A DNA stretch of 64,000 nt from an uncultured Acidimicrobiia bacterium. GTDB taxonomy: Bacteria > Actinomycetota > Acidimicrobiia > Acidimicrobiales > AC-14. The translations under genes and the position numbers were made by a program. Position 1 is the stretch's first letter; each line of letters begins with the position of its first letter. The stretch is taken from assembly GCA_963836205.1 (NCBI GenBank), contig CAWIIV010000006.1:576001-640000 (forward strand). Reading direction: 5' to 3'. This document shows positions 28,486-55,962 of the stretch, in pieces. The notes under the pieces are model-generated. The model saw nothing but the letters and a program-made list of their open reading frames with translations, did not search any database and was not told the origin of the DNA.

Positions 28486-31400
28486 ATGGCGGCAGTCCTC
28501 CTCGTCTGGCTGCGGTACACGCTGCTCGGCGGAGCGATGCTTTTGGGCTGGTTGCGGCGCGTCTTCTATTCCGGCTGGCGACGGCCATTGGCCTGGCTGG
28601 CCGTCGTCGCGGCCGGGATGTGGGTCCTCGTGAACCCGGGCCCAGTGGGCGGCGGGTGGTGGAAGATCGAGCCGGTGCTCGGCGTCTATGCCGTTCTCGT
28701 ATCGATCCGCTGGATCTGGAAGGCCAGGACCCGTCTCGTCATCGGCACCTTCATCGACTACCGGCTCGACAAGCCCACGCCTCTGCCGGGCCTCAGCGCC
28801 CTGCTGCAAGTGGAGCTCGGCCGCCTCTACGACCTGGTCAACCTCGTCGACCAGAATCGCGCCGTCCCCGACATCCTGCGCGGCCCGCAGAGCGTGTCCT
28901 TCGACGAGCAGCGCACCCTGGACGAGGCCGAGGACGATCCCAATCTCATCGTGGACGAACCCCTCGACGTCCCCGCCCCCATGATGGCGGAGGACCTCAC
29001 CGAAGTCCTCGACGCCGCCCTCAGCGTCGAGGCGACGATGCTGGTCGGGCGGGTGAAGATCCCCATCGGCGCCCTCGCCGGCCTCGTCGGCCGTCTGGCC
29101 CAGGGGCCTCGGCTCAGCGGTTCCCTGCACCGCACCGACCAGGGCCTCGTCCTCACCGCCCGAACGGTCGGCACCGCCCAGGCCCGGACCTGGCGGGTCG
29201 ACGGCGCACCGGCGACCGCCGGAGAGGGCGATCCCGAGGAGTGGCCCGAGGCACTTCTCGACGAGCTGGCGGTGCGCATCTTCACCGATCTCGCCCTCGA
29301 GGGATCGGTGAAGTGGCAGGCGACGTGGGCCTACGTCAAGGGCCTGCGCGCCTACCGGGGCTCCCTCCGCACGAGGAAGGACCGCCGGCTCGGCCTGGAG
29401 CGGGCCAAGGACCATTTCATCGAGACCATTGCCGAGGACGAGCGGTTCGACCTGGCCCACTACAACCTGGGCGTGGTGGCGACCGAGCTCAGCCAGAAAG
29501 AGGCGGCGGAGTCCGCGTTCCTGGCCGCCATCCGGTTGAACAACCAGCGGTGGGCCCCGTACTACGGCCTGGCCCAGCTGTATTTCGCCAACGATCGCCA
29601 CGACGAGGTGCTGCCCCTGTGCGGTCGCATCCTCCACCTCCGCCAGCACCGGGCGGAGGCGTACCACCTGCGAGCGCTCAGCAACCGCCGCAACCGAGAC
29701 CTGGACGCGGCCATGAAGGACAGGAATGCCGCCGCCCGCTGTTCGTGGCTCAGACTCTGCGGGGCCGTCGTCCAGGGCCGGGAGAGCGACGCCCGGAAGC
29801 TGGCCGCCACCAGCCTGCGGAACCTGGGCTGCCTCCGGGCCTACGACGCCAAGCGGAAGTGGCCGGCGCTCGAGGCTCCGGGGAACGAGGACAAGGAACG
29901 GAGGTCGCTACGACTCCGGCTGGGCTACCTGGCCGCGGCCAAGGAGCTGAAGCAGGGTCGCTTCGTCAACCCGTCCGACGCCGAGCTCCATTTCGAGCTG
30001 GGAAAGATCTACGCCGCCCGGAGGCAGTGGTTGCGGGCCGCCCGCCAGTTGGAGAAGGCGGTGGAGATCGATCCCGATCGGCCCCGCTTCTGGATTCAGT
30101 TGGCACGGGCCTACGCCGGACCCCGCTCCGATCGTCAGCGTCGACTGTGCCAGCGGCGGGCGTTGTTCGCCTCGGAACGGGCCCGGACCCAGCCGTCGTT
30201 GATCGTCGACCAGGGTTTCGAACGCCTGAAGAAGGTCTACACCCGGTTGGAATGTGACGAACACCTCAGCCAGGTACGAGAGCTGCAGGAGTTCGAGAAC
30301 GACCGCCGCACGTGGAACGGGACGGTCCCATCGAGCCCCGAACTGGAGAGGCGCCTGTCGGGGCTGAAGTCGGGGCCGGTGTGGGAGAGGACCCAGGTCT
30401 GCGTCCAGCTGGCGGAGCGCTACCTCGACGTGATCGACAAGAAGCGGGCCTCGCGCGTTGCCGATCTCCTGGCCGACAACCTCGAAGACCTGCGCCGCCA
30501 CCACCCGCGTGAGGTGAAGGAGAACCACATCTACGCCTTGGTTGCGGAAGCCCTCCACGCGGCCGACCGCGACACCGACGCGCTGCGCTATGGCGAAGCG
30601 GCTGTCTTCTACGACCCTCTGAGCGCCCGGGCGCGCAAGGCCCTGGCCGCGGTGTACGCAACTCTGGGGCACTTCGAGCAGGCCACCGACGCGTGGCGGG
30701 CCGCCCTTGTCTGCGACCCCGATGGCCCCGACACCAACCTCGCCCTGGGTGAGACCCTCATGCGCCACGCCCTCGGATCTCCGGAGTCGGACGCCCGCCG
30801 GGCGATGTTCACCGAGGCCACGACCTACCTGCGCAGTGCGCTCAAGCTCGCCGCCGTCTCAGGCATCTCGACCGGACCCCGGGACGGCGCGTCGAAGATG
30901 TCGGAGATCGAGGGCAGAGCGCGCTTCTGGCTCGGTCGGGCCGCCTTCGAGCTGGACGTCTACGAGCAGGCCGTCACCCATCTGCAGGTCTGCGTAACGC
31001 TCGACCACGAGCCCCTTCTGGCCCGTCTCCGGCTCGGAGTCGCCTACCTGCGCATGGGTCACGTGTGCGACGGAGAGCGCGTCCTGGCGGAGATCAAGAG
31101 CTACGCCGAAGCCATGGCGTCGTCACCGCAGAACGGATCGACCATCGTCGGGCCCCTCGGCGACAGGCTGACGGTCAGAGAGGTGCTGGCGTGGGCGAGG
31201 GTCTACCTGGCCGGTTCGCGCATCGAGCGGGATGTCGACCTGGAGGACGCGATCAAGGACATCCGGGAAGTCGCCGCGAAGGCCCGGTCAAAGTCCGACG
31301 GCGGCACTTCGCCGGGCCTGCTGGCGGCGTGCGCGGACAAGGAGGGGTGGGCCCGATTCCTGCTCAACGAGCACGAGCGCGCCGTCGAGAAGTTGCAGGA

Positions 31401-31653
31401 GTCGATTCGACTGGAGCCCACCGCCGAGGCCTACCTCCACCTCGCCCAGGTGCACGCAAACCGGGCGCTCGACACCACGGCACCGGCCAAACGCCTCCGC
31501 GACGAGACCCGCGCCCGGCACTACGGCGAGTTCGCTCGGAGCCTGGGCCTGGGATCCCAACAGGCTGAGCCCCTCGATCGCCTCATCCGACGCCTCGATG
31601 TCGAAGGGCCCCCGCAACAGGACTCGTGCCCGGCGCTCCTCCACGTTCTCTAG
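28486..31653 (+). CDS. Large TPR-repeat protein with N-terminal TM segments
   Basis: Hydrophobic N-terminus, then repeated TPR-like helices (AHYNLG, PYYGLA, LHFELG, TNLALG, ARFWLG, AYLHLA). Confidence 0.85.
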   Translation: MAAVLLVWLRYTLLGGAMLLGWLRRVFYSGWRRPLAWLAVVAAGMWVLVNPGPVGGGWWKIEPVLGVYAVLVSIRWIWKARTRLVIGTFIDYRLDKPTPLPGLSALLQVELGRLYDLVNLVDQNRAVPDILRGPQSVSFDEQRTLDEAEDDPNLIVDEPLDVPAPMMAEDLTEVLDAALSVEATMLVGRVKIPIGALAGLVGRLAQGPRLSGSLHRTDQGLVLTARTVGTAQARTWRVDGAPATAGEGDPEEWPEALLDELAVRIFTDLALEGSVKWQATWAYVKGLRAYRGSLRTRKDRRLGLERAKDHFIETIAEDERFDLAHYNLGVVATELSQKEAAESAFLAAIRLNNQRWAPYYGLAQLYFANDRHDEVLPLCGRILHLRQHRAEAYHLRALSNRRNRDLDAAMKDRNAAARCSWLRLCGAVVQGRESDARKLAATSLRNLGCLRAYDAKRKWPALEAPGNEDKERRSLRLRLGYLAAAKELKQGRFVNPSDAELHFELGKIYAARRQWLRAARQLEKAVEIDPDRPRFWIQLARAYAGPRSDRQRRLCQRRALFASERARTQPSLIVDQGFERLKKVYTRLECDEHLSQVRELQEFENDRRTWNGTVPSSPELERRLSGLKSGPVWERTQVCVQLAERYLDVIDKKRASRVADLLADNLEDLRRHHPREVKENHIYALVAEALHAADRDTDALRYGEAAVFYDPLSARARKALAAVYATLGHFEQATDAWRAALVCDPDGPDTNLALGETLMRHALGSPESDARRAMFTEATTYLRSALKLAAVSGISTGPRDGASKMSEIEGRARFWLGRAAFELDVYEQAVTHLQVCVTLDHEPLLARLRLGVAYLRMGHVCDGERVLAEIKSYAEAMASSPQNGSTIVGPLGDRLTVREVLAWARVYLAGSRIERDVDLEDAIKDIREVAAKARSKSDGGTSPGLLAACADKEGWARFLLNEHERAVEKLQESIRLEPTAEAYLHLAQVHANRALDTTAPAKRLRDETRARHYGEFARSLGLGSQQAEPLDRLIRRLDVEGPPQQDSCPALLHVL

Positions 31654-31802
31654 CAACCGTCTGATTTGTCAAGAGTCCTGCGGACCGCGGTGAAATAGGC
31701 GTCCGTTGTCGGGCGCGTCGATCCGGGTGCGGGGTGCTCCCCCCTTTTCGGCGGCCTCCCTGCGGCAGCACGCTGACTTACGCGACCTCGCACGAGGGCG
31801 GG

Positions 31803-32180
31803 TCAGATGTGGTCGACCTCGATCTTGCCCGCCGCCCCAAGCCGGAGGTAACAGACCGTGTGGACCGCGAACACAGAGGCAGCGAACTCGTCGTCGTTAG
31901 CCCATCGGGTGTAGATCGCGCCCTGCTTATTGAGAACCTCCCCCACGGCAAGCATGGCCTGACCGGTCGCGTCGACGCTCGCCAGGGCCTGATGCCTCGG
32001 GATGCGGTGCCGCTTGAAGACGGCGTTACTTTGGCCGAGCACCGCGACCCAATCCTCGAGTTCGACGCCATCTTGCCGAACCAGGTCCATCACGCCGCAC
32101 ATGCCATGGCCGTTCATTCGCAGGTACGCAGCCGGGGAAAGGTGTTGCAAGGTGATGGCTATCGCCTCTTCCAGGCCCAT
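31803..32180 (-). CDS. Hypothetical cargo protein (125 aa)
   Basis: ATG 32180, globular-looking composition, lower GC; its TGA lies in the junction with the IS right-end remnant. Confidence 0.55.
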   Translation of the reverse strand: MGLEEAIAITLQHLSPAAYLRMNGHGMCGVMDLVRQDGVELEDWVAVLGQSNAVFKRHRIPRHQALASVDATGQAMLAVGEVLNKQGAIYTRWANDDEFAASVFAVHTVCYLRLGAAGKIEVDHI

Positions 32181-32992
32181 CCGGGCCCGAACGGAACTCC
32201 GATCTGGTCTCGCCCGGCCCAACGCCTCAGAGCGCGCTGAACGAGCTGCTCCCCGCTCGGGGAACTGCTGCCGACGCCCGAAGCCGGCAGCCCGGGGGGG
32301 GCCTGTTGGGCTGTCGCAGGAGGCCGTGGCGCAGGCGCGGTAGGTTTCACCGGCCAGTCCTCCCCAGCAGCCGCATTTCGCCAGGTGCGGTCATTCTGGT
32401 ATCGGGGCACGATCTCCTTGCCAGTGAAGCCAAGGACCTCCTCAAGGATCAGCCTGATCGGAGCAGGCCCGGGGAGGCGGGCGAGGGATTCGCTCAGTCC
32501 GTCCTCACCGGGAGCGACGATGGCGACCTCCAGTTCGTCATACTCGAGTCGACAGGCAGCTGCCCGAGCTTCGATCCCAGCGGCAGCGAGCCGATCATTC
32601 GCTGCATCGAGCGCCGCGGCGAGCCGCTGGACGGCCGACCCGCCGACCCGTTGGGCGGGCCTTTGCTCGGATTTCGGAGTAGCACGGCCGACTTCCCCCG
32701 TTGGACGGGGTCTAGCTGGAGGCCCGCCCGATGAACTTCGGACCCTGATGTAGCTGGCGCTGGAGCGACCGTCGCCGTCTACCCCGACGACGGTCAGGCC
32801 TTCCCGCTGAAGGCGTTCGACGGCGAGGTCGGTAAGAACATCCAACCGGTAGCGGATAGGGAAGTCAGTCGATCGCACCGCCACGACAAATTCTCCCTGC
32901 CCGCCATTGGCAGCCTCGCGTGCCTGCCGGTCGATCTCAGCGAAGCCCCGTCCGAGCCCGTCCGAGCCGGTCAGCTTCGAAAACAGCCCCAC
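32159..32992 (-). CDS. Hypothetical cargo protein
   Basis: GGGAGG RBS, MGLFSKL start, lower-GC codons; the C-terminal part may be spurious. Confidence 0.6.
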   Translation of the reverse strand: MGLFSKLTGSDGLGRGFAEIDRQAREAANGGQGEFVVAVRSTDFPIRYRLDVLTDLAVERLQREGLTVVGVDGDGRSSASYIRVRSSSGGPPARPRPTGEVGRATPKSEQRPAQRVGGSAVQRLAAALDAANDRLAAAGIEARAAACRLEYDELEVAIVAPGEDGLSESLARLPGPAPIRLILEEVLGFTGKEIVPRYQNDRTWRNAAAGEDWPVKPTAPAPRPPATAQQAPPGLPASGVGSSSPSGEQLVQRALRRWAGRDQIGVPFGPGWAWKRR

Positions 32993-33122
32993 GTTTCCCT
33001 CCCAATTCAGTGCCCATCACGGTCGCCAGAGAACGCTGATACACCTCCGACAGGGTCCCCCACTCGCTTGAGCAGGGGTCCCAGCGTGGAGTCGGCAACC
33101 CCGACCTCACAGGAGGATTCCG

Positions 33123-34526
33123 ATGGCCCACGTTGGAGGACAGCTTCAAGCGCAGTTCATGGCCCGTATCCGCGGGCGTGACCCCGAGCGTTGCCTGGTG
33201 GTGCCCGTCGACGTCGGCAAGTCGTCGGCGATGGCGCTCGTCGCCGACCACTACGGCGAGATGGTCGTGGCGCCCTTCGAGTTCGTCCTCACCGAGACCG
33301 GGTTCGCGGTGCTGTCGGGAGCGATCGCCCGGGCCGAGGCGACGCGCTCGGCCGAGGTCGTGCGGGTCGGGGTGGAATCGGCCGGGCACTACCACCGCAC
33401 GCTCGTGGCCCGCCTGCGGGCCGGCGGCCACGAGGTCGTCGAGCTCAACCCGGCGGCGGTGAAGGAGGCCCGGTCCCAGCAGCTGCTGCGCCGCCTCAAG
33501 AGCGACGCCCGGGACCTGGGGGCGATGGCCGAGCTGATGATCCGTGGCGCCGGCCGCCCCCCGGCGGTGCGCACCGACGCCCTGGCCACCCAGGGCGCAT
33601 GGGTCGCCCACCGCCGGCGCAAGGTGTCGGCCCGGGTGGCGCTGGCCAACCAGGTCATCGGCCAGCTCGACCTGGTCTTCCCCGGCCTCGACGGCTGCTT
33701 CTCCGACCTGCTCGGCGCCCGCGCCGGGCGGGTGATCGTCACCCACATCTGCGACCCCGACCGCGTCCGGCGCCAGGGGATCGAGGGCCTGCGTCGCTTC
33801 GTGGCCCGACGAGGCGTGACGCTGTCGGGGCCCAAGGCCACCCAGGTTGTCGAGGCGGCCCGGGTGGCGCTGCGCCTGCCAGCCGCAGAGCGGGCCGTCC
33901 TGGGCAGGGTCTTAGCCGCTGACCTGGCTCTTCTCGCCAGCCTCGAGGCCGGGATCGTCGCCGCCGAGGTGTCCCTGGCCGAGGTCCTGGCGGACACCCC
34001 GGCGCGGATACTGACCTCCCTGCCCGGGGTGGCGGTGGTGCGGGCCTCGAACTACGGCGCCGGCATCGGCGACCCGGCCCGGTTCCCGAACGCGGCCGCC
34101 GCCTACCGGGCGGCGGGCCTGGTCCCGACGCTGTACGAGTCGGCCGGGAGATCCCGGTCCCGCCAGCACATCAGCCGGGAAGGCTCCGTCGAGCTGCGCC
34201 AGGCGATCATCGAGCTCGGCCGGGGCCTGGCCCAGCACGAGGCCGACTTCCGCCACTACCGCCGCCGGATCCTCGACTCGGGCAAGCCGGCCTCGGTGGC
34301 GGCCGTCGCCGTCGGCCATCGGGCCCACCGCCTGGCCTTCGCCATGCTGCGCGACCAGTTGCCCTACGACCCGGCCCGATGGACCGAGTCGGTGGCGGCG
34401 GGCATGACCGCCATGGCGAAGACCCGACGGGCCCACCAGAACGACGTGACGTGCCCGCCGCCGGCCACCAGCGTGCCCGAAGGGGGTGAGGCCGACAACA
34501 CCACCGCCAGACGCTCTCGGGGCTGA
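33123..34526 (+). CDS. IS110 family transposase/recombinase (DEDD RuvC-like + Tnp domain)
   Basis: VPVDVGK, VGVESAGHY, KSDARD, LTSLPGV, AGLVP..YESAG, ISREGSVELR; AGGAGG RBS. Confidence 0.95.
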   Translation: MAHVGGQLQAQFMARIRGRDPERCLVVPVDVGKSSAMALVADHYGEMVVAPFEFVLTETGFAVLSGAIARAEATRSAEVVRVGVESAGHYHRTLVARLRAGGHEVVELNPAAVKEARSQQLLRRLKSDARDLGAMAELMIRGAGRPPAVRTDALATQGAWVAHRRRKVSARVALANQVIGQLDLVFPGLDGCFSDLLGARAGRVIVTHICDPDRVRRQGIEGLRRFVARRGVTLSGPKATQVVEAARVALRLPAAERAVLGRVLAADLALLASLEAGIVAAEVSLAEVLADTPARILTSLPGVAVVRASNYGAGIGDPARFPNAAAAYRAAGLVPTLYESAGRSRSRQHISREGSVELRQAIIELGRGLAQHEADFRHYRRRILDSGKPASVAAVAVGHRAHRLAFAMLRDQLPYDPARWTESVAAGMTAMAKTRRAHQNDVTCPPPATSVPEGGEADNTTARRSRG

Positions 34527-34700
34527 AACGCCCCGAGATCGGCGGCGGGGGGCCCGGACCGATGTCGAGTGCGCTACGACGTCCTTCGGGAACGTCGCTT
34601 CTAGCATGACGCCGGGTCCCTCCCACTGAAGCGAGCGCGAACGTGGTTGCCTGACCCGCCCTCGGGCGAGGTCGCGTATGTCAGCGTGTGCCGCGAGGGA
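34390..34700 (+). ncRNA. Candidate IS110 bridge RNA (target- and donor-binding loops)
   Basis: Stem 34394-34404/34452-34462. Stem 34551-34557/34612-34618 encloses CGCT, a UUCG hairpin and TCTAG. A loop GGTTGC-CT, hairpin, GTATGTCAG spans 34645-34684. These segments match the element junctions. Expression not shown. Confidence 0.65.
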
Positions 34701-34826
34701 GGCCGCCGAACCGGAAATCACCCCGAACCGGATCGACGCGCCCCTCGACGGACGCCTACTTCACCGCGGCTCCACAAGACTGTTGACAAACCAGACGGTT
34801 GCTAGACCCGAGTGGTCAAAGGGTGC

Positions 34827-35104
34827 CTACGTGCTCTTCGTGCGGCTCCACTCCCAGTTGCCGGGGCCGCTGTCCCACCAAACATGCCACCCGGGGAAGC
34901 TGGAGCCGCTGGAGGGGAAGATCAACAGCTTGGTCACGGCTTTTCCGAAGTCGTAGAAGGCGCCGACGTCCGCCTTGCCGCCGTTGAAGTCACCGACCAC
35001 CGGCTTCGTGCGGCTCCACTCCCAGTTGCCGGGGCCGCTGTCCCCACCAAACCTGCCATCCTGGAAACCCACTGCCGCTGGAAATGAACACCAAGAGCTT
35101 GGTG
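34827..35104 (-). pseudogene. Fragment of an FG-GAP/VCBS-like repeat protein (two near-identical repeats)
   Basis: WWDSGPGNWEWSRTK appears twice (one copy with a frameshift) around PVVGDFNGGKADVGAFYDFG. Confidence 0.7.
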
Positions 35105-35390
35105 TGCCGCGCCACGAGCGTGCGGTGGTAGTGCCCGACCGACTCCACCCCGACCCGCACGATCTCGGCCGAGCGTGCCGCCTCGGCCCGGGCGATCGAG
35201 GCCGCCAGTACCGCGAAGCGGGTCTCGGTGAGGGCGAACTCGAACGGAGCCACAACCATCTCGCCGTAGTGGTCGGCGACCAACCCATCGCCGCCGACCT
35301 GCCGACCGGCACCACCAGGCAGCACTCGAGGTCCCGCCCGCGGATGCGTGCCATGAACTGCGCTTGGAGCTGTCCTCCAACATGGGCCAT
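35105..35390 (-). pseudogene. Truncated, frameshifted N-terminus of an IS110 transposase
   Basis: MAHVGGQLQAQFMARIRGRD...LVADHYGEMVVAPFEF...VGVESVGHYHRTLVAR, nearly identical to 33123 onward, with small deletions. Confidence 0.9.
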
Positions 35391-35574
35391 CGGATGTCCT
35401 CCTGTGAGAGTCGGTTGCCGACTCCACGCTGGGGGGGCCCTGCTCAGGTCGAGTGGGGGACCCTATCGAAGGTGCATCAGCGGCGAGGGCCAAGGGGGGA
35501 CGAAACGGCGCCGCCGACGACGGAAGGGGCCGCCTCGACGACATCGTCGCTCGGGACGGCGGACGCCCCTTCGA

Positions 35575-35904
35575 GCGGCGTGCGCGGACAAGGAGGGGTG
35601 GGCCCGTTTCCAGCTCAACGACCACGAGCGCGCCGTCGAGAAGTTGCAAGAGTCGATTCGACTGGAGCCCACCGCCGAGGCCTACCTCCACCTCGCCCAG
35701 GTGCACGCAAACCGGGCGCTCGACACCACCGCACCGGCCAAACGCCTCCGCGACGAGTCCCGCGCCCGGCACTACGGCGAGTTCGCTCGGAGCCTGGGCC
35801 TGGGATCCCAACAGGCTGAGCCCCTCGATCGCCTCATCCGACGCCTCGATGTCGAAGGGCCCCCGCAACAGGACTCGTGCCCGGCGCTCCTCCACGTTCT
35901 CTAG
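35575..35904 (+). repeat. 330-bp direct duplication of the TPR gene 3' end (31324-31653)
   Basis: Colinear at offset 4251 with about 6 substitutions seen by eye; ends in the same TAG. Confidence 0.95.
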
Positions 35905-36118
35905 CGGCCTGTGGCCCCCGGCGGACGGCAGGGTCCGCCTCGACGACCTCGCCACTCGGACGGGCGGGCGACCTTCGGCCCACGGACCGCCGTTAGTATC
36001 CGGATCGCCCCCGCCGCCCGTCGGCCGAACGTCCCGGAGCCGTCCCGCGCCCTCCCCCGCCAACCGCGCCGACACCCCCAGCCGGCTCCGGCAGTGGGCC
36101 CGGGCCTCGGAGGGCACG

Positions 36119-37393
36119 GTGGCCATCGCCGCCGGGCTGATGGTGCTCGGCCTCACCGCCTACGGCTTCCTGGTCATCGCCGCCCGGGCGCTGGGCCCCG
36201 AGGCCTACGCCCCCTTGTCAGCCCTGTGGGCGATCGTCTTCCTCGTCGGACCGGGTTGCTTCATCCCCATCGAGCAGGAGCTGGCTCGCAGCCTGGCTGC
36301 CCGGCGGGCCGCGGGCCTGGGCGGGGGGCCGGTGATCCGGCGGGCGGCGGCCCTCGGCGGCGGTGCCCTCCTGTTCCTCACCGTGGCCTGCACCGTGGCC
36401 GGCGTGGTCCTCCTCGACCAGCTGTTCGACGGCGAGGCCCTGCTCGTGGTGGGCCTGCTCCTGTCCCTGGCCGGGTACTACGCCGAGCACCTGGCCCGGG
36501 GCGTCCTCGCCGGCTACGGACGGTTCCGGCCCTACGGCATCGCCCTCGCCACCGAGGGCACCCTGCGCCTGGTGGGCTGCGCCGTCCTGGCCGTCCTCGG
36601 CGTGGCCACCGCCGGCGCCTACGGCATCGTCCTCGGCGCCGCACCCCTGGTCGCCACCGCCGTCGCCCTGCGGGGCCAGCACGACCTCGCACCCCCGGGC
36701 CCCGAGGCCGACCGGCGGGAGCTCACGGTGGCCCTGGGCTGGCTGCTGGCCGGATCGGTGCTGGCCCAGGCTCTGGCCAACGCCGGGCCGGTGGCGGTGA
36801 AACTCCTGGCCGACGACAACGAGCGGGCCGTGGCCGGACGCTTCCTGGCCGCCCTCATCGTGGCCCGGGTGCCCCTGTTCCTCTTCACCGCCGTCCTCGC
36901 CCCCGCCCTCCCCCGCCTGGCCCGGATGGCGGCCGCCGGCGACCGCCGGGGCTTCGACGCCGGCCTCCGCCGCCTGCTGGCGCTGGTGGCGGCCCTGAGC
37001 ACGGCCGGCATCCTCGGCGCCCTGGTCGCCGGCCCCACCGTCGTGCGCACACTCTTCGGGGCCGACTTCGAGCTGCCCGCCCACGACCTCGCCACCCTGG
37101 CCGTGGCCTGCGCCGCCTACCTGTTCGCCATGACGTTGGCCCAGGCCCTCATCGCCGTCTCCGGCCACGGCCGGGTGGCGATGGCCTGGCTGGCGGGCGT
37201 GGTGTCGTTCGGAATCGTCACCGCCCTCGGGTCCGACCTCCTCACCCGGGTCGAGCTGGGGATGGTGGCCGGCGGGGTGGTATCGGCGGTGGCCATGGCC
37301 GGGCTCCTCCTCCCCCTCCTCCACCACCGGGTGGGACCGACCCCGTCGGCGGCGGGGCTCCTCACCTCGCCGCCCCCGGGGATGACGCCGTGA
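36119..37393 (+). CDS. Oligosaccharide flippase (Wzx/MOP-like)
   Basis: RALGPEAYAPLSALW, PIEQELAR, ARVPLFLF; about 12 TM segments. Start may be somewhat upstream. Confidence 0.8.
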   Translation: MAIAAGLMVLGLTAYGFLVIAARALGPEAYAPLSALWAIVFLVGPGCFIPIEQELARSLAARRAAGLGGGPVIRRAAALGGGALLFLTVACTVAGVVLLDQLFDGEALLVVGLLLSLAGYYAEHLARGVLAGYGRFRPYGIALATEGTLRLVGCAVLAVLGVATAGAYGIVLGAAPLVATAVALRGQHDLAPPGPEADRRELTVALGWLLAGSVLAQALANAGPVAVKLLADDNERAVAGRFLAALIVARVPLFLFTAVLAPALPRLARMAAAGDRRGFDAGLRRLLALVAALSTAGILGALVAGPTVVRTLFGADFELPAHDLATLAVACAAYLFAMTLAQALIAVSGHGRVAMAWLAGVVSFGIVTALGSDLLTRVELGMVAGGVVSAVAMAGLLLPLLHHRVGPTPSAAGLLTSPPPGMTP

Positions 37394-47945: not shown

Positions 47946-50900
47946 ATGTACATCACCATCACGTCGATCCGGCTCGGCGCGGTCGTCCGACGGCTGGCGG
48001 GCCTGGTGGCCGTGGCGGTGGTAGCCAGCCTCCTCGCCGCGGTACCCGCCGCCGCCCTGGTGTCCGGCGTCCTCGACCCGACGTTCGGCACCGGTGGGAT
48101 CACCCGCGTCGACCTGGCCGGGCCCAGCATCGACGTCGCCAATGCCGGCGTGAGCAATCCGGGCGGCGCGGAGACCGTCCTCGTCGGATCGGCCAACGGC
48201 CACTTCGCCCTGGCCGGGTCGTCCGGGGTGTCGCCGTTCGGCAATGCCAGGCACCAGGTCGTCCTCGACTTCGGCCGCCCGTCGGCCGCCTACGCGGCGG
48301 CAGCTACCAACGACGTGGTCGCAGCCGGGCGGGCGGGCGACGACTTCGCGGTGGCCCGCCTGACCCGGTTCGGGAACCCGGTCCCCGGCTTCGGCGACCA
48401 GGGCCGGGTTACGACCTCGTTCGGACGCCCGGCGGTGGGCCGGGGGGTGGCGCTGCGGATCGACGACACGTTCGTCGTGGGGACGGTCGGCGTCGGCACC
48501 GACGCCGACGTGGCCCTGGCCCGCTACGACAGCCAGGGGCAACTGGTCCCGGAGTTCGGAGCCGGTGGGACCATGGTCGCCGACCTCTCCGGAGGCGCCG
48601 ACGCCGCCTACGCGGTGAGAAACGTGTCCCGCGGCGGCCCCGGAAACCTCGTCGTCGGGGGACGGGCCGGCGGTGCCGCCTTCGTCGGTCGCTACCTGCC
48701 CGACGGCACGTGGGACCCCAGGTTCGGTGATCGGCGGTCGGGTCCTCCTAGACCTCACGCCCGGCGACGACATCGCCTACGGCCTCGACATCTGGGCCGA
48801 CGGTCGCATCGTCGTGGCCGGCATCACCGCCTCGGGAGGCTTCGTCGCTCACCTGACACCGGCCGGAGCCCTGGACGCGACCTTCGGCACGGGCGGCCTG
48901 GTGACGGTCGACCTCGGCCCGGCCGGCGGCTTCAGCTCGGTGGTGTTCGGTGAGAACCCGGCTCGCCAAGCGGTGATCGTGGCCGGAGGGACGATGGTCA
49001 CACCGTCCGGGACCGACGGTGTGCTGGTCCGCCTCACGACCGCCGGCCAGATCGACACCGGCTGGGGCACCGGCGGCCGGACCGTCGTCGACTTCGGCGG
49101 CCCGACCGACAGGGGCAACGCCGTCCTGCGCCAGGGCGCATCTGCCGACAGCGCCTTCCTGATCGGCGGCGACGGCACCGACATGCGGCTGGGGGTGGTC
49201 GACACCGCCGGTCATCTGGTCCCGCCGTCGGACATCGTGTCCGGCCGGATCGACTTCTCCGTCTCGTCCGAGTGGGGCGAGGAGATGGTGGTGCAACCCG
49301 ACGGCGCCATCGTGGTCGTCGGTGGCGGCGACGCCGGGCTGGTGGTGACGCGCTTCCGCCCCGACGGTCGCCTCGACCCGACGTTCGGCCGCGGCGGCGT
49401 GGTCGTCGAGCCGCTCGGGGAGGGCACCGCGGTCGCGCTCCAGGCGGACGGGAAGATCCTGGTCGGCGGGCGGCGCGGCACCCGGGTGTGGGGCGTCTAC
49501 CGCCTCCTGGCCGACGGTCGGATCGACCAGGCCTTCGGCAACCTCGGGTTCGCCGGCTACGACCTCAGCGGCATCTCCACGGTGGGTGGTATCGCGGTAC
49601 GACCAGACGGCCGCATCGTGGTCGGCGCCACACGGCTCCTCGTCCTCAGCCCTTCGGGCCAGATCGAGACGTCCACCAGCCTGGGCATCACCGAAGCCGA
49701 TGTCGTCTCGGGGCTGGCGATGGAACAAGACGGCGTCGTGGTGGCCGTGCTCCGGAAACGCAACGAGATCCTCGGGTCGGGCGGACGGGCCGTGCGCCTC
49801 CTCCTCGACGGTACCCTTGACACGTCCTTCGGCACGACCGTCCGGGGCGCGGCCGGCGGCGTGGTGCGTCTCGCCGACGGCAGGTTCGTGTTCGCCGGCG
49901 AGATCGTCACCGGACGCTCGCCCGGGGGCCTGCCGACGGGTACCGACCTCGTCCTGACCGCCATGACCCACGACGGGTGGAACGACGAGACCTTCGGTGG
50001 ACCCGGGTCGGGCGGCATCGTCAAACTGGACATCGGGCAGTACGACCACGTTCCTGATCTCACCGTCACGCCCGACGGGAAGGTGCTCGTCTCGTTCTCC
50101 CACGGCGCCGACTCGATGCGCCGTGTGGGCCTGGCCCGCTTCCTGCCCGACGGCCGCCTCGACCGCAGCTTCGCGTCGCAGGGGACATGGATCGGCACCC
50201 TGGTGTCGTGGGGGACGGCCGTCGCCGTCGGAACCGACGGCCGGGTGCTCGTCGCGGGGCGGACCGACGGTCCGAATCTCGACGTGGCCCTGATGGCTAT
50301 GGCACCGGCGTCGGTGGCGAGCGGGCCTCCGCGGGCGTGGGGCTTCGGCGGGCTGGGCCAGTCGGGCGTCGGGACCGCCCCGGTCGTCGCGGTGGCCGGG
50401 GGCACCCATCACACCCTGACCGTGGCCGGGGACGGGTCCGTCCGGGCCTCGGGCTGGAACCTCACCGGACAGCTGGGGAACGGGACGACCGTCGACAGCA
50501 ACGTCCCGGTGAGGGTGACGGGCCTCACCGGGGTGGTCGCGGTGGCGGCCGGCACCTATCACAGCCTGGCCCTGAAGGCCGATGGAACCGTGTGGGCGTG
50601 GGGATGGAACCACTTCGGCCAACTGGGCAACGGGACGACCGTCGACAGCCGCGTCCCGGTGCGCGTGGCCGGGCTGACCCAGGTCACCGCAATCGCCGCC
50701 GGATCCCACCACAGCCTCGCCCTGCGGGCCGACGGAACCGCCTGGGCGTGGGGGTGGAACAGCCTCGGCCAGCTGGGCACCAGCACCCACCTCGTCAAAT
50801 CGACCGCCGACAGCGCCACGCCGGTGCCCGTGCGCGCCCCCGGTGCGATCACGGCGGTGGCGGCCGGCAGCTACCACAGCCTGTTCCTGTACGGCGACGG

Positions 50901-51360
50901 GACCATTTACTCGGCCGGCTGGAACGCCTTCGGCCAGCTCGGCCACGGGCCGGAGAACGGGCTCGCCCCCTCCGGGGTCCTCGACTCGGGCAGTTCCCGG
51001 GGCCGATACGTGGCGATCGCAGGAGGCGGGCTCCACAGCCTGGGCGTCAAGGCCGACGGGACGGTCGCGGCCTGGGGGTACAACCAGCTGGGCGAGCTGG
51101 GCGACGGATCGAGGACCGACAGCCAGGTTCCGGTGACGGTGAAAGGCGTCACCAATGCCCTGGCGGTGGCCGGCGGCGGGTACCACAGCCTGGTCCTGGG
51201 ACGGAACGGCGTCGTCCAGGGATGGGGCTCGAACGGCTACGGCCAACTCGGCACCGGCACGACGGCCGACCGCACCGAGCCCACGGTCGTGACGGTCATC
51301 CCGGCCGGCACGGTCGTCTCCGGCATGGCCGCCGGCACCCTCCACTCCCTGGCGTTCTGA
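47946..51360 (+). CDS. Secreted beta-propeller protein: delta-60 repeats + RCC1 repeats (+1 frameshift near 48729)
   Basis: Signal peptide; repeated LDPTFG.GG and QPDG.IVV; C-terminal HSLAL.ADG.VWAWGWN..GQLG repeats; ORFs 47919 and 48673 join at about 48729. Confidence 0.85.
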
Positions 51361-54746: not shown

Positions 54747-55919
54747 CTACGGCCGCCAGGTCAGCTGCTTGTCGCTGGCGTTGCCGTAGCTGAACGAGGC
54801 GTCGGCCACGCCCGTGGTGTTGGAGTTGCGGAGATACCAGGTGTTGCCGCGGACGACACCCGGTGTCACCGAGTCGTTCCCGTCCCAATCGCCGGGCACG
54901 GCCTTGTCGGTGGAGTTGCCGTAGGTGAAGTTGCTGTCGGCTGCGCCCTGGCTGTTGGAATTGCGGATGTACCAGACGCTCGCACGCACGACGCCGGGAG
55001 TGTCCGAACCGCTGCTGTCCCAGTCGCCCACGACCGGGACGTCACCCGGATTGCCGTAAATGAAGGAGATGTCGGCTGCGCCCTGGCTGTTGGTGTTGCG
55101 CAGGTAGAACGTGCCGTTGCGGACGACGCCGGGGGTGACGGTGCCGTTGCCGTCCCAGTCACCTGCGATGGGCGTATCGCCCGGGTTGCCGTAGATGAAC
55201 GTCACGTCGGCCGCGCCGGTGGAGTTGGCGTTGCGCAGGTACCAGGTGCCGGCCCGCACCACGCCCGGGGTCACCGAGCCGTTGCCGTCCCAGTCTCCGG
55301 TGATGGGGATGTCGCCGGTGGGGTTGCCGTAGACGAAGACGGTGTCGGCGTTGCCCGTGGTCTGGCTGTTGCGCAGGTACCAGGTGTCGGCCCGCACCAC
55401 GAGGGGCCGGTCGCGCTTGGGTCCCGCGGGCGGGATCGTCGAGGTCGTGGTCGAGCTGGTGCTGCTCGTGCTGCTGCTGCTGGTGGTCGTGGCGCCGACG
55501 ACGGTGGTGCTGGTGGTCGTGGTGGCGCCCGGCGTCGTGGTGGTCGTGGTGGTGGAGGTGCTCGACGTGGTGGTGGTGGCGTTGACGCAGGAGCTGAACA
55601 CGGCCGAGTCGACCTCTTGGCCCACGACCACGACGACGGCGTTGACGCTCTTGGGAACCGCCTTCTCGATGGAGCTGCTTGCGGGGACGGTGAACGCGAT
55701 CGGCGGCCCCGCTCCTTGGATGGTGCCCGTCACCGACGTGGTCCGCTGGTTGTTGAGGACGACGAAGTTGGTCGTCTCGGCACCGGTGCCACAGCGAGGC
55801 GTCACGGTCAGCTGGGCGATCGCCGCGTTCGCCATCGTCGGGAGAAGCAGGAACCCGACGGCGACCATTGTCGCCAGACACACTGCCCTCATAGTCCGAA
55901 ATCGAGTGGACCGATCCAT
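54747..55919 (-). CDS. Secreted protein: small beta domain, Thr/Ser linker, C-terminal 5-repeat GDWDG domain
   Basis: Signal peptide ending ANA, poly-Thr linker, five W/FY(L/I)RN...AD..F.YGN repeats. Alternative start 55970. Confidence 0.87.
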   Translation of the reverse strand: MDRSTRFRTMRAVCLATMVAVGFLLLPTMANAAIAQLTVTPRCGTGAETTNFVVLNNQRTTSVTGTIQGAGPPIAFTVPASSSIEKAVPKSVNAVVVVVGQEVDSAVFSSCVNATTTTSSTSTTTTTTTPGATTTTSTTVVGATTTSSSSTSSTSSTTTSTIPPAGPKRDRPLVVRADTWYLRNSQTTGNADTVFVYGNPTGDIPITGDWDGNGSVTPGVVRAGTWYLRNANSTGAADVTFIYGNPGDTPIAGDWDGNGTVTPGVVRNGTFYLRNTNSQGAADISFIYGNPGDVPVVGDWDSSGSDTPGVVRASVWYIRNSNSQGAADSNFTYGNSTDKAVPGDWDGNDSVTPGVVRGNTWYLRNSNTTGVADASFSYGNASDKQLTWRP

Positions 55920-55962
55920 CTTCACCCTGCCTTCCGCTTGTCCGATTCGATCGAATTCAACG

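What the first reader, a model, noticed from the sequence alone, without database searches (positions are those of the whole stretch)
33036..34803. IS110 element whose 3' non-coding end encodes a readable bridge-RNA-like guide
Seen: the junctions define a CT core, the target CG-CT-AGA (shared by two independent insertion sites here) and the circle-junction donor ACGGTTG-CT-GATACAC. Downstream of the recombinase, loop 1 carries CGCT (34572-34575, target left + core) and TCTAG (34600-34604, reverse complement of CTAGA) around a UUCG hairpin, closed by stem 34551-34557/34612-34618. Loop 2 carries GGTTGC-CT (34645-34652, donor-left-like) and GTATGTCAG (34676-34684), which pairs with CTGATACAC at 8 of 9 positions including one wobble. 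Established: IS110/IS1111 recombinases use RNAs with target- and donor-binding loops. Inference: this is an actinobacterial, 3'-encoded, potentially reprogrammable system with a short target motif.
Basis: partly seen in the sequence, partly recalled or inferred. Interest (0 to 1): 0.85.

Follow-up and report, generated by a model that had tools for sequence, protein, structure and literature searches.

The report
IS110 element with downstream bridge RNA
This is an apparently intact (not assayed) IS110-family insertion sequence whose non-coding tail encodes a two-loop guide ("bridge") RNA that matches both its insertion sites and its own ends: a real but already known kind of system, with the RNA gene in an unusual place.

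Summary
Window 33036-34803 is a 1768-bp IS110-family element. It has three copies in this genome (two identical, one with a single difference), CT at both junctions, and CG-CT-AGA at all insertion sites.

The 277-nt stretch after the recombinase gene folds into two internal loops. Across 39 distinct homologous right ends the helices covary: 98.1% of cells are paired against 38.7-49.0% in slid controls, and 13 of 33 pairs show compensatory changes.

Loop 1 covaries with the flanking DNA. Left flank: 166 of 234 positions match (permuted mean 79.0). Right flank: 140 of 190 (permuted mean 88.4). None of 10000 permutations reached either value. Loop 2 covaries with the element's own ends: 74 of 78 positions (permuted mean 51.2). 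In the 4 relatives whose core is TT instead of CT, all four guide segments change in step.

No transcript, RNA-protein complex or circular form was observed.

It is a known kind of system. The one unusual point is a mix of features. Guide order, simple loops, absence of subterminal inverted repeats and the 467-aa recombinase are IS110-type, yet the RNA lies downstream, as in IS1111 elements. The same layout occurs in Rhodococcus, Mycolicibacterium and Streptomyces plasmids.

The parts
33036..34803 (+). Whole IS110-family element, 1768 bp counted with CT at both ends; one CT belongs to the target
   Evidence: Three full copies in the genome, two identical and one with a single difference, each in different flanks.
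33036..33122 (+). Left end, 87 nt non-coding. It begins with the CT core followed by GATACAC (right donor half). It holds a possible TG-n-TACACC -10-like element and a ribosome-binding site, AGGAGG.
   Evidence: Sequence. The left end starts CTGATAC or TTGATAC in all 44 relatives in which it could be located. The promoter role is inferred.
33123..34526 (+). Recombinase gene, 467 aa: DEDD RuvC-like domain plus Tnp domain, with Ser340 in the motif YESAG
   Evidence: Pfam PF01548 (E 9e-24) and PF02371 (E 9.5e-14). NCBIfam NF033542 scores 145.3 bits against a cut-off of 140. Residues 274-421 align to the IS621 transposase 8wt6, E 6.6e-10.
34536..34705 (+). Conserved bridge-RNA block of about 170 nt. 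Its true 5' and 3' ends are unknown.
   Evidence: nhmmer finds the block in 60 of 90 fetched loci. Consensus structure. Covariance model R1 scores it at 165.7 bits.
34548..34557 (+). Outer stem of the target-binding loop, 5' strand; pairs with 34612-34621
   Evidence: Alignment columns 17-26 pair with 91-100, with compensatory GC/AU and CG/GC changes.
34563..34566 (+). Inner stem of the target-binding loop, 5' strand; pairs with 34608-34611
   Evidence: Columns 32-35 pair with 86-89; 6 sequences have UA in place of CG.
34569..34575 (+). Left target guide GUGCG plus the core match CU. [quoted passage not shown]
   Evidence: 166 of 234 flank positions match across 39 insertion events, against a permuted mean of 79.0; 0 of 10000 permutations reach the observed value.
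34577..34597 (+). Hairpin inside the target-binding loop, with a UUCG tetraloop
   Evidence: All 3 scored pairs show changes on both sides.
34598..34604 (+). Right target guide CUUCU plus the core match AG; the reverse complement of CT-AGAAG
   Evidence: 140 of 190 flank positions match across 38 events, against a permuted mean of 88.4; 0 of 10000 permutations reach the observed value.
34612..34621 (+). Outer stem of the target-binding loop, 3' strand
34631..34638 (+). Outer stem of the donor-binding loop, 5' strand; pairs with 34688-34694
   Evidence: Columns 111-118 pair with 187-194; 12 and 7 sequences carry both-side changes at two of the pairs.
34643..34650 (+). Left donor guide GUGGUUGC. 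Its last 6 nt equal the right-end sequence GGTTG plus the first core base.
   Evidence: 74 of 78 positions match in 13 distinct guide/end pairs, against a permuted mean of 51.2; 0 of 10000 permutations reach the observed value.
34652..34674 (+). Hairpin inside the donor-binding loop
   Evidence: Column 135/169 is GC in 20 sequences and CG in 18.
34676..34684 (+). Right donor guide region GUAUGUCAG. The supported pairing is GUCAG with CTGAT of the left end, with one G-T wobble.
   Evidence: The final G becomes A in all 4 loci with a TT core. G becomes A (AUCAG) in L017, L042 and L049. Position 4 varies without compensation.
34688..34694 (+). Outer stem of the donor-binding loop, 3' strand
34783..34788 (+). 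TTGACA, a -35-like hexamer 13 nt before the core; candidate half of a circle-junction promoter
   Evidence: The right end was located in 42 of 49 parsed sources. The hexamer is TTGACA in 33, TTGACT in 3, TTGACG in 3, TTGACC in 2 and TTGCAA in 1, with 13-nt spacing in 38 of 42. The function is inferred.
34796..34803 (+). Left donor half GGTTG (34797-34801) plus the CT core (34802-34803) at the right junction

Best explanation
Window 33036-34803 is an intact IS110-family insertion sequence with near-identical copies, suggesting recent movement. Its right non-coding end carries the gene for a bridge RNA, also called a seekRNA. The RNA is read in the same direction as the recombinase gene and is about 170 nt long (34536-34705).

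STRUCTURE. The RNA has two internal loops, each wrapped around a hairpin.
- Target-binding loop. [quoted passage not shown] The fully matched site would be GTGCG-CT-AGAAG. The three real sites share only CG-CT-AGA.
- Donor-binding loop. Its 5' side (GGUUGC) matches the right end plus the first core base. Its 3' side (GUCAG) pairs with CTGAT at the left end.

PROPOSED MECHANISM. The DEDD/serine recombinase, loaded with this RNA, would bring the joined ends of an excised circle (..ACGGTTG-CT-GATACAC..) together with the target. It would exchange strands at CT, leaving CT at both junctions.

PROPOSED EXPRESSION. A conserved TTGACA 13 nt from the right end probably forms a junction promoter with the left end. 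In that case the recombinase mRNA and the RNA in its 3' part would be made as one transcript from the circle.

SHOWN HERE: element boundaries, copies and target motif; RNA helices by covariation; guide-target and guide-donor covariation.

INFERRED: the transcript and its processing, binding to the recombinase, the circular intermediate, the junction promoter and the chemistry.

CLASSIFICATION (about 70% confident). By architecture the element is IS110-group, not IS1111-group, although its RNA lies downstream.
For: PROTEIN. Both IS110-family Pfam domains are present. NCBIfam 'IS110 family RNA-guided transposase' scores above its cut-off. The C-terminal domain aligns to the IS621 and ISCro4 recombinases, with YES340 opposite the YESG of IS621.

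MOBILITY. There are three full copies in different flanks, two identical and one with a single difference. An uninterrupted paralogous site exists, as does a diverged orthologous empty site with matching spacing.

STRUCTURE. Counted on 39 distinct homologous right ends: 33 pairs, 98.1% of cells paired against 38.7-49.0% when partners are slid, 13 pairs with changes on both sides, and 0 of 500 shuffles reaching the observed values for four of the five measures (2 of 500 for further pair types). By my sum of the per-pair table, 119 of 1283 cells are G-U. These would be A-C mismatches on the other strand, so the plus strand is the one that folds.

TARGET GUIDES. Left flank against the 5' loop side: 166 of 234 positions, permuted mean 79.0. 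Right flank against the reverse complement of the 3' loop side: 140 of 190, permuted mean 88.4. Taking one event per distinct guide gives 96 against 52.0 and 85 against 49.2. None of 10000 permutations reaches any of these.

CORE. The 4 loci with TT in place of CT at both ends (L031, L032, L036, L066) have all four guide segments changed accordingly.

DONOR GUIDE. With the end defined only by the -35-like box plus 13 nt, 74 of 78 positions match, permuted mean 51.2, 0 of 10000. This includes L049, whose end ACACGCGC matches its guide 8 of 8.

OTHER HOSTS. The same scaffold lies after the recombinase gene in three named plasmids. In Rhodococcus opacus PD630 the left guide matches the flank 6 of 6. 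In Mycolicibacterium chubuense NBB4 and in Streptomyces sp. NBC_01320 the right guide matches 5 of 5.

GEOMETRY. It agrees with the published IS621 rule that the 5' side of a loop pairs with the bottom strand and the 3' side with the top strand, both covering the core (PMC11208160, passages read).
Against: NO EXPRESSION EVIDENCE. No transcript, RNA-protein complex or circle junction was seen. No listed run that holds the sequence is on record as RNA.

PROMOTERS. No sigma-70-like promoter or intrinsic terminator was found in the integrated copy. The proposed -10 partner, TACACC, lacks the usual final T.

SINGLE-SEQUENCE FOLD. It is not exceptional, with a z-score of -0.97.

WEAK MATCHES IN THIS ELEMENT. 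Its own three sites match the left guide at only 2, 3 and 5 contiguous bases, and the right guide at 3 each.

RELATIVES THAT FIT BADLY. L047 left flank 1 of 6; L026 right flank 0 of 5; L011 right flank 2 of 5; L051 and L052 right flank 2 of 5. The M. chubuense left flank also fits poorly.

CORE COVERAGE. The left donor guide reads only the first core base. The base that follows is a constant C where T would be expected.

ALTERNATIVE PAIRING. RNAalifold also pairs UGC of the left donor guide with GUA upstream of the right donor guide, so those bases may have another role.

PARTIAL SAMPLE. 14 of the 63 sources examined, all distant relatives, could not be parsed by my pattern and are not in the statistics.

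NON-INDEPENDENCE. Related sequences are not independent, so the permutation figures overstate significance.
Confidence: 0.9

Rival explanations
1. The mechanism is the same, but the element belongs to the IS1111 group, whose members are known to encode the RNA downstream. The finding would then be an entirely ordinary IS1111-type seekRNA.
For: The layout has a short left end (87 nt) and a long right end (277 nt), with the RNA downstream. Durrant et al. and Siddiquee et al. describe this layout as typical of IS1111. Durrant et al. state that RNA location closely predicts the phylogenetic split.
Against: - No subterminal inverted repeat. The best exact inverted repeat between the two ends of the window copy is 4 nt, and 199 of 200 shuffles do as well. 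Among 30 distinct end pairs tested, only L036 (8 nt, 6 of 200) stands out.
- The bottom-strand match lies 5' of the top-strand match, as in ISEc21 and IS621. Siddiquee et al. report the opposite order for every IS1111 member they tested.
- The recombinase has 467 aa, against 330-350 aa for IS1111.
- The donor loop is a simple internal loop, not a multi-loop.
- Siddiquee et al. note that some IS110-family elements have downstream non-coding regions.
- No tree with ISfinder reference proteins was built, so this rival is not excluded.
Confidence: 0.06
2. The conserved right-end block acts as DNA rather than RNA. It would be either a set of recombinase-binding sites, or single-stranded DNA guides that pair with the target as in IS200/IS605 elements.
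For: Covariation alone cannot separate a folded RNA from folded single-stranded DNA of the same strand. No transcript was observed.
Against: The protein belongs to the family in which RNA guidance has been shown biochemically and structurally. 119 of 1283 helix cells are G-U pairs and the helices are strand-specific. The two-loop geometry copies that of the IS621 RNA. IS200/IS605-type guides go with an unrelated HUH transposase (recalled, not tested here).
Confidence: 0.02
3. The matches are coincidental, and the region is only a structured 3' untranslated region or terminator of the recombinase mRNA.
For: The motifs in the window itself are short (4 and 5 nt), and the single-sequence fold z-score is -0.97.
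Against: No permutation of 10000 reaches the observed guide-flank or guide-end agreement. All four guides switch together with a change of core. No terminator-like site was found.
Confidence: 0.02

Closest known systems
IS621 / ISEc21-type (IS110-group) bridge RNA or seekRNA systems (Durrant et al. 2024, PMC11208160; Hiraizumi et al. 2024, PMC11208158, listing and abstract only; Siddiquee et al. 2024, PMC11187229)
   Same: - DEDD plus Tnp-domain recombinase.
- CT core dinucleotide (the IS621 core is recalled as CT).
- One RNA with a target-binding loop followed by a donor-binding loop, each an internal loop around a hairpin.
- In each loop the 5' side pairs with the bottom strand and the 3' side with the top strand.
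- No subterminal inverted repeats.
- A -35-like box in the right end close to the junction.
   Different: - The RNA gene lies downstream of the recombinase gene, in the right end, not upstream in the left end.
- The recombinase is much longer: 467 aa, against chains of 328 aa (IS621) and 341 aa (ISCro4) in the Protein Data Bank.
- The left donor guide covers only the first core base.
- The guides are shorter: about 5 and 3 to 5 nt beyond the core, against the 8-9 and 4-7 nt per loop side (core included) reported for IS621.
- If a junction promoter exists, it would drive the recombinase gene first and the RNA second.
IS1111-group elements with right-end-encoded seekRNA or bridge RNA (ISEc11, ISPa11, ISKpn4; PMC11187229, PMC11208160)
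   Same: Short left end and long right end. The RNA lies downstream of the recombinase gene. Target selection is RNA-guided, with matches to both strands.
   Different: - IS1111 members have subterminal inverted repeats of 7-17 bp; none are found here.
- Their recombinases are 330-350 aa; this one is 467 aa.
- Their top-strand match lies 5' of the bottom-strand match; the order here is the reverse.
- Their donor-binding bases often sit in a multi-loop; here they sit in a simple internal loop.
Unnamed IS110-family elements on plasmids of Streptomyces sp. NBC_01320, Mycolicibacterium chubuense NBB4 and Rhodococcus opacus PD630 (48%, 45.5% and 41% protein identity)
   Same: The same clade of long recombinases. 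The same loop scaffold lies downstream of the gene, with guides that match their own flanks.
   Different: They have different guides, targets and end sequences. In the Streptomyces copy the 5' loop side does not show the CT core in register. These elements are annotated only as 'IS110 family transposase', with no RNA annotated.

Membership tests
IS110 family (DEDD recombinase insertion sequences) | N-terminal DEDD RuvC-like domain and C-terminal Transposase_20 domain | tested here: met
   PF01548 E 9e-24 and PF02371 E 9.5e-14. NF033542 scores 145.3 bits against a cut-off of 140.
IS110 family (DEDD recombinase insertion sequences) | Conserved serine in the G..P....SG motif of the C-terminal domain | tested here: met
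   GLVPTLYES340AG aligns with GLTPRRYESGS of IS621. The residue after Ser is Ala, not Gly, and is invariant in the 4 aligned relatives. That this serine is the catalytic one in IS621 is recalled, not tested.
IS110 family (DEDD recombinase insertion sequences) | Site-specific insertion, with no target duplication beyond a shared core dinucleotide and no terminal inverted repeats | tested here: met
   Three copies lie at CG-CT-AGA with CT at both junctions. Empty sites carry a single CT. No inverted repeats at the ends.
IS110 family (DEDD recombinase insertion sequences) | Circular intermediate with a promoter formed at the junction | tested here: inconclusive
   A conserved TTGACA lies 13 nt from the core in 38 of the 42 located right ends, but the -10 partner is weak. 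No right-end-to-left-end joint was seen in contigs of 4 runs, and contigs cannot show absence.
Bridge RNA of IS621 / IS110-group type | Two internal loops, each enclosing a hairpin, supported by covariation | tested here: met
   5 helices, 98.1% of cells paired, 13 of 33 pairs with compensatory change.
Bridge RNA of IS621 / IS110-group type | [quoted passage not shown] | tested here: met
   166 of 234 and 140 of 190 positions match; 0 of 10000 permutations reach either value. Core covariation in the 4 TT-core loci.
Bridge RNA of IS621 / IS110-group type | Donor loop pairs with both element ends across the same core | tested here: met
   74 of 78 positions for the left donor guide. For the right donor guide, G changes to A with the TT core in 4 of 4 loci. 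Only the first core base is covered by the left donor guide.
Bridge RNA of IS621 / IS110-group type | Encoded in the left end, upstream of the recombinase gene | tested here: not met
   The conserved RNA block is 34536-34705, after the stop codon at 34524-34526. The left end has only 87 nt.
Bridge RNA of IS621 / IS110-group type | The RNA is transcribed and bound by the recombinase | not testable with these tools
   No listed run that holds the sequence is on record as RNA.
IS1111 group / IS1111-type seekRNA | Long non-coding region downstream of the recombinase gene | tested here: met
   277 nt downstream against 87 nt upstream.
IS1111 group / IS1111-type seekRNA | Subterminal inverted repeats of 7-17 bp | tested here: not met
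   the window copy's best exact repeat is 4 nt (199 of 200 shuffles do as well). 29 of the 30 distinct end pairs are unremarkable. Imperfect repeats were not scored.
IS1111 group / IS1111-type seekRNA | Top-strand match located 5' of the bottom-strand match | tested here: not met
   Here the bottom-strand match (34569-34575) is 5' of the top-strand match (34598-34604). The rule is taken from PMC11187229 sections 9 and 12.
IS1111 group / IS1111-type seekRNA | Recombinase of about 330-350 aa, related over its full length to that of IS1111 | tested here: inconclusive
   The length is 467 aa, outside the range given in PMC11187229 section 6. No IS1111 reference protein was available for comparison or for a tree.

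The most novel reading that the evidence does not exclude
A clade of long-recombinase, IS110-type elements may carry an IS621-like two-loop bridge RNA transposed to the right end. It would span Acidimicrobiia, Streptomyces and Mycobacteriales and lack subterminal inverted repeats.

In the circular form the order would be junction promoter, recombinase gene, RNA. The guide would then be cut from the 3' part of the recombinase mRNA.

Its code would be compact, about 5 + 2 + 3 to 5 bases. In nearly all members it is centred on CTA(G/A). In this host CTAG is tenfold depleted, so the shared 7-base motif already gives only 36 candidate sites in 4 Mb.

No text that I could read describes the RNA of such elements.
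Probability: 0.45. Interest if true: 0.45.

Novelty: new member of a known kind. Interest (0 to 1): 0.38.

Why it matters
It shows that a reader working from sequence alone can correctly decode a bridge RNA: which bases read the target and which read the element's own ends.

It adds a well-supported natural series of retargeted guides. There are 23 distinct left and 22 distinct right target guides, several donor variants and a change of core, all from high-GC actinobacteria. Systems from this group have not been characterised experimentally in the papers I read.

It documents a mixed layout, with IS110-type RNA architecture encoded downstream. This bears on how the RNA gene moved between element ends during the IS110/IS1111 split.

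It also offers compact orthologues that could be tried as programmable recombinases in high-GC hosts.

It does not reveal a new mechanism.

Tried and rejected
RFAM. No match to any family at E up to 1 over 32500-36500.

SINGLE-SEQUENCE FOLDING. z-scores of -0.97 (plus strand) and -0.18 (minus strand), uninformative by themselves.

PROMOTER AND TERMINATOR SCAN of 32900-34900. Nothing found.

SEQUENCING RUNS. No RNA holder is listed. The best holders carry under a fifth of the sampled words. Contigs of X1-X4 laid on 32936-34903 gave no right-end-to-left-end joint. They came from relatives at other sites, with loose ends at 33035 and at 34805/34807, next to the element's boundaries.

EMPTY SITE FOR THE CONTIG-15 COPY. 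Left-flank orthologues were found in 5 same-genus genomes, but the right flank is not adjacent there.

FAMILY PLACEMENT. tblastn against plasmids at E up to 1 did not settle IS110 against IS1111, because the annotations say only 'IS110 family'.

LITERATURE. Searches 'bridge RNA' + 'IS1111' + 'IS110', 'seekRNA', a six-term actinobacteria search (uninformative) and 'bridge RNA' + 'downstream of the recombinase' (0 papers) found no description of a downstream RNA in an IS110-type actinobacterial element. The Kocuria paper (PMC12500396, passages) describes an upstream region. The preprint 10.1101/2024.06.21.599552 had no relevant passage.

Rejected for the distal four bases: position 4 varies freely, and the degenerate copy changes both partners without restoring a pair. 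An alternative, GUA..UCAG pairing with CTGA+TAC across a 2-nt bulge, fits all variants but cannot be tested because TAC never varies.

Full report
WHAT IS THERE

Window 33036-34803 (plus strand) is a 1768-bp insertion sequence. Its one long reading frame, 33123-34526, gives a 467-aa protein with the two Pfam domains of IS110-family recombinases: DEDD_Tnp_IS110 (E 9e-24) and Transposase_20 (E 9.5e-14). It passes NCBIfam NF033542, 'IS110 family RNA-guided transposase', at 145.3 bits against a cut-off of 140. Residues 274-421 align to the solved IS621 recombinase (8wt6, E 6.6e-10) and residues 294-427 to ISCro4. The motif GLVPTLYES340AG lies opposite GLTPRRYESGS of IS621. The non-coding parts are 87 nt on the left and 277 nt on the right.

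BOUNDARIES, COPIES AND TARGET

The genome (4.05 Mb, 25 contigs) holds three full copies: two identical and one with a single difference. Their flanks are:
- ggggcg|CT..CT|agacgc
- agaacg|CT..CT|agaccc
- ggtgcg|CT..CT|agatct

A fourth, roughly 87% identical, broken copy lies on the minus strand of the window. Its right end is 31652-31806, flanked CT|agagaacg. Its left end and the 5' part of its gene are 35108-35480, flanked ..ctcgccg|CT. A 97% identical paralogue of that right flank ends in an uninterrupted ccgCTAGagaacg (minus-strand reading) near 35890-35905.

For the contig-14 copy, a 78% identical orthologous region in a genome of the same family has 27 nt between shared anchors. The window genome has the same 27 nt if the element and one CT are removed.

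The junction itself was not observed.

All motifs are at the stated coordinates. In the minimum-energy fold and in the alignment fold, they lie on the two sides of a symmetric 9-by-9 internal loop:
- 5' side: AGUGCG-CU-A, 34568-34576
- 3' side: CUUCU-AG-CA, 34598-34606

The loop encloses a UUCG-capped hairpin (34577-34597). It is closed by stems 34563-34566/34608-34611 and 34548-34557/34612-34621.

By themselves these short matches prove nothing. The fold z-score is only -0.97, and Rfam has no matching family.

RELATED ELEMENTS

A scan of species-representative genomes gave 10 loci in Acidimicrobiales, Acidimicrobiaceae, Pilimelia and other actinomycete MAGs, at 67-90% protein identity. A metagenome scan with a 4-protein alignment gave 97 relatives, of which 80 were kept. 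An HMM of the right-end core found the block in 60 of these 90 loci.

STRUCTURE

I aligned 39 distinct cores (alignment A2). RNAalifold predicts 33 pairs in 5 helices. Counted with controls:
- 98.1% of cells form standard pairs, against 38.7-49.0% when partners are slid by 1-3 columns.
- 13 pairs show changes on both sides, in 102 cells.
- No shuffle of 500 reaches the observed value for four of the five measures; 2 of 500 do for further pair types.

Summing the per-pair table gives 119 G-U cells out of 1283. The plus strand, the sense of the recombinase gene, is therefore the one that folds.

TARGET-BINDING LOOP

I parsed the two loop sides by a scaffold pattern in 49 of 63 sources: 60 loci plus the three genomic copies. 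The 14 that failed are the most distant relatives. Ends were located from the conserved left-end start (C/T)TGATAC and from a -35-like box near the right end.

Over 47 unique insertion events:
- Left flank. The 6 nt left of the element equal the 5' loop side at 166 of 234 positions (39 events), against a permuted mean of 79.0.
- Right flank. The 5 nt right of the element equal the reverse complement of the 3' loop side at 140 of 190 positions (38 events), against a permuted mean of 88.4.
- With one event per distinct guide (23 left, 22 right), the figures are 96 against 52.0 and 85 against 49.2.
- No permutation of 10000 reaches any of these values.

Per-position agreement is 5, 26, 26, 34, 37, 38 of 39 for positions -6 to -1, and 37, 36, 32, 19, 16 of 38 for +1 to +5. 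The effective code is therefore about 5 + 2 (core) + 3 to 5 bases.

Misfits exist: L047 (left 1 of 6), L026 (right 0 of 5), L011 (right 2 of 5), and L051 and L052 (right 2 of 5). Because relatives share ancestry, the permutation figures overstate independence. Even so, the many different guide-flank pairs are hard to explain otherwise. Examples are TTCCG, CTAG, ACAG, CTAAG, GCGCG and CGTTT on the left, and AGCG, AACGG, ACGG, AAGGA, ATTCG, AAAGA and ACTCA on the right.

DONOR-BINDING LOOP AND THE CORE

Four relatives (L031, L032, L036, L066) start with TTGATAC. Where the right end is present, it ends in GTTGTT, so their core is TT. In all four:
- the left target guide ends in UU instead of CU;
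- the right target guide has AA instead of AG;
- the left donor guide reads GGUUGU instead of GGUUGC;
- the right donor guide reads GUCAA instead of GUCAG.

None of the other 45 parsed sources shows these changes, except that the decayed copy L019 has AA in its right target guide.

The left donor guide also follows other end variants. AGTTGC goes with guide GUAGUUGC in L033. CATTAC and GTTAC occur in a third subgroup. ACACGCGC in L049 matches its guide 8 of 8. I then defined the end only by the box plus 13 nt, without using the guide. On that basis, 13 distinct guide/end pairs agree at 74 of 78 of the last six positions, against a permuted mean of 51.2; 0 of 10000 permutations reach this.

The base after this guide is a constant C where the second core base T would be expected. 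Only the first core base is therefore read on that side.

For the right donor guide, covariation supports (G/A)UCA(G/A) pairing with (C/T)TGAT.

HOW IT MOST LIKELY WORKS

The geometry equals the published rule for IS621. [quoted passage not shown] I therefore take the region to be a bridge RNA.

Its first loop selects GTGCG-CT-AGAAG-like sites. The three real sites match 2-5 and 3 contiguous bases on the two sides. Its second loop holds the joined ends of the excised element. The recombinase then exchanges strands at CT.

A -35-like hexamer lies 13 nt before the core in 38 of the 42 located right ends: TTGACA in 33, and a close variant in the other 9. Together with TG-n-TACACC at the left end, it could form a junction promoter of the kind shown for IS621, ISEc11 and ISEc21. 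That promoter would drive the recombinase gene first and the RNA behind it.

All of this paragraph is inference. No promoter or terminator was found in the integrated copy, no RNA-holding run is listed, and no junction-spanning contig was seen.

SPECIFICITY IN THIS HOST

The genome has 71.4% G+C. CTAG is about tenfold depleted: 1022 observed against 10558 expected from base composition. CGCTAGA occurs 36 times against 385 expected. The fully matched 12-mer occurs nowhere, and only 8 sites match 9 of the 10 guide positions. The short shared motif is thus already rare here.

COMPARISON WITH WHAT IS KNOWN

RNA guidance in this family, and a downstream RNA gene in the IS1111 group, are established. 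Sources were PMC11208160 (passages), PMC11187229 (abstract and sections 6, 9, 12, 13), and the review PMC13604230 and PMC12288879 (passages). The finding is therefore not a new kind of system.

On the defining features of the IS1111 group, this element fails three and meets one:
- No subterminal inverted repeats.
- The reverse order of strand matches.
- A 467-aa rather than a 330-350-aa recombinase.
- It does have the downstream location.

Apart from location, its RNA architecture is that of the IS110 group. Siddiquee et al. mention that some IS110-family elements have a downstream non-coding region. I found no text describing their RNA. I built no tree with reference proteins.

DISTRIBUTION

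The nearest named records are plasmids of Streptomyces sp. NBC_01320 (48% identity), Mycolicibacterium chubuense NBB4 (45.5%) and Rhodococcus opacus PD630 (41%). All three carry the same loop scaffold after the gene, with guides matching their own flanks. R. opacus matches 6 of 6 on the left. The other two match 5 of 5 on the right. The M. chubuense left flank fits poorly.

A covariance model of the RNA (R1; 178 positions, 30 pairs) finds 4 places in the window's genome: the three copies and the remnant. In an even sample of the phylum it finds matches in 4 of 151 genomes, counting the window's own. One of the other three, G187, is flagged unpublished.

VERDICT

The element is a new, well-documented member of the bridge-RNA-guided IS110 family, with an uncommon layout.

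Noticed in passing
window 31652-31806 (-) and 35108-35480 (-): Two pieces of a second, roughly 87% identical IS110-type element. Its right end and its left end with the first 290 or so nt of the gene are separated by 3.3 kb. That 3.3 kb holds the intact element and an unrelated ORF (32159-32992, minus strand). About 1.24 kb of the broken copy's interior is missing. This looks like a rearrangement between element copies.
   Followed up: partly
window 31317-31652 and 35568-35905: A direct repeat, 97% identical over the 300 nt the tool compared and about 336 bp long by eye. It consists of the 3' ends of two paralogous ORFs (..LHLAQVHANRALDTTAPAKRLRDE..LLHVL*). The first copy abuts the broken element's right end. 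The second ends in an uninterrupted CTAG whose TAG is the ORF's stop codon.
   Followed up: partly
window 34836-34876 and 35004-35044: An exact 41-bp direct repeat, 168 nt apart, in the 300-bp piece between the intact element and the broken one. On the minus strand it repeats a peptide ..SGPGNWEWSRTK.., so it looks like a fragment of a repeat-containing gene.
   Followed up: no
whole genome G000: CTAG is about tenfold under-represented: 1022 observed against 10558 expected at 71.4% G+C. In 37 of 38 events the right flank of elements of this clade begins with A, so most targets contain CTAG or CTAA.
   Followed up: partly
L011, L017, L019: The recombinase reading frames of these three relatives contain an internal stop, yet the downstream RNA block is still well conserved. 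L019 has also lost its right end and has a G-to-A change in the core match of its right target guide.
   Followed up: no
L068-L076, L086, L100 (Streptomyces plasmid): A more distant subgroup keeps the loop scaffold, but its 5' loop side reads ..CAAGUAUC.., so the CT core is not in register. In L100 the left flank is ..CAAGTA|CT and the right guide matches 5 of 5. My pattern could not parse these.
   Followed up: partly
alignment A2 columns 128-130 with 175-177 (window 34648-34650 with 34676-34678): RNAalifold pairs UGC at the end of the left donor guide with GUA just before the right donor guide. Only one-sided changes occur (G-U to A-U in 9 sequences, C-G to U-G in 4). This may be a closed state of the free RNA, or a by-product of donor covariation.
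   Followed up: no
L042, L045, L047, L051, L054 flanks: The third subgroup inserts at sites of the form ..CTCGTTT-CT-AGACAAACGAG... This is an imperfect palindrome and may be a repeated genomic element or another mobile element's end.
   Followed up: no
window 54754-56620, 50382-51305 and 3476-3952: Other repeat families in the window: 135-nt tandem units in two blocks, 150-nt units in a coding-like array, and an Asp-rich 15-nt periodic stretch.
   Followed up: no
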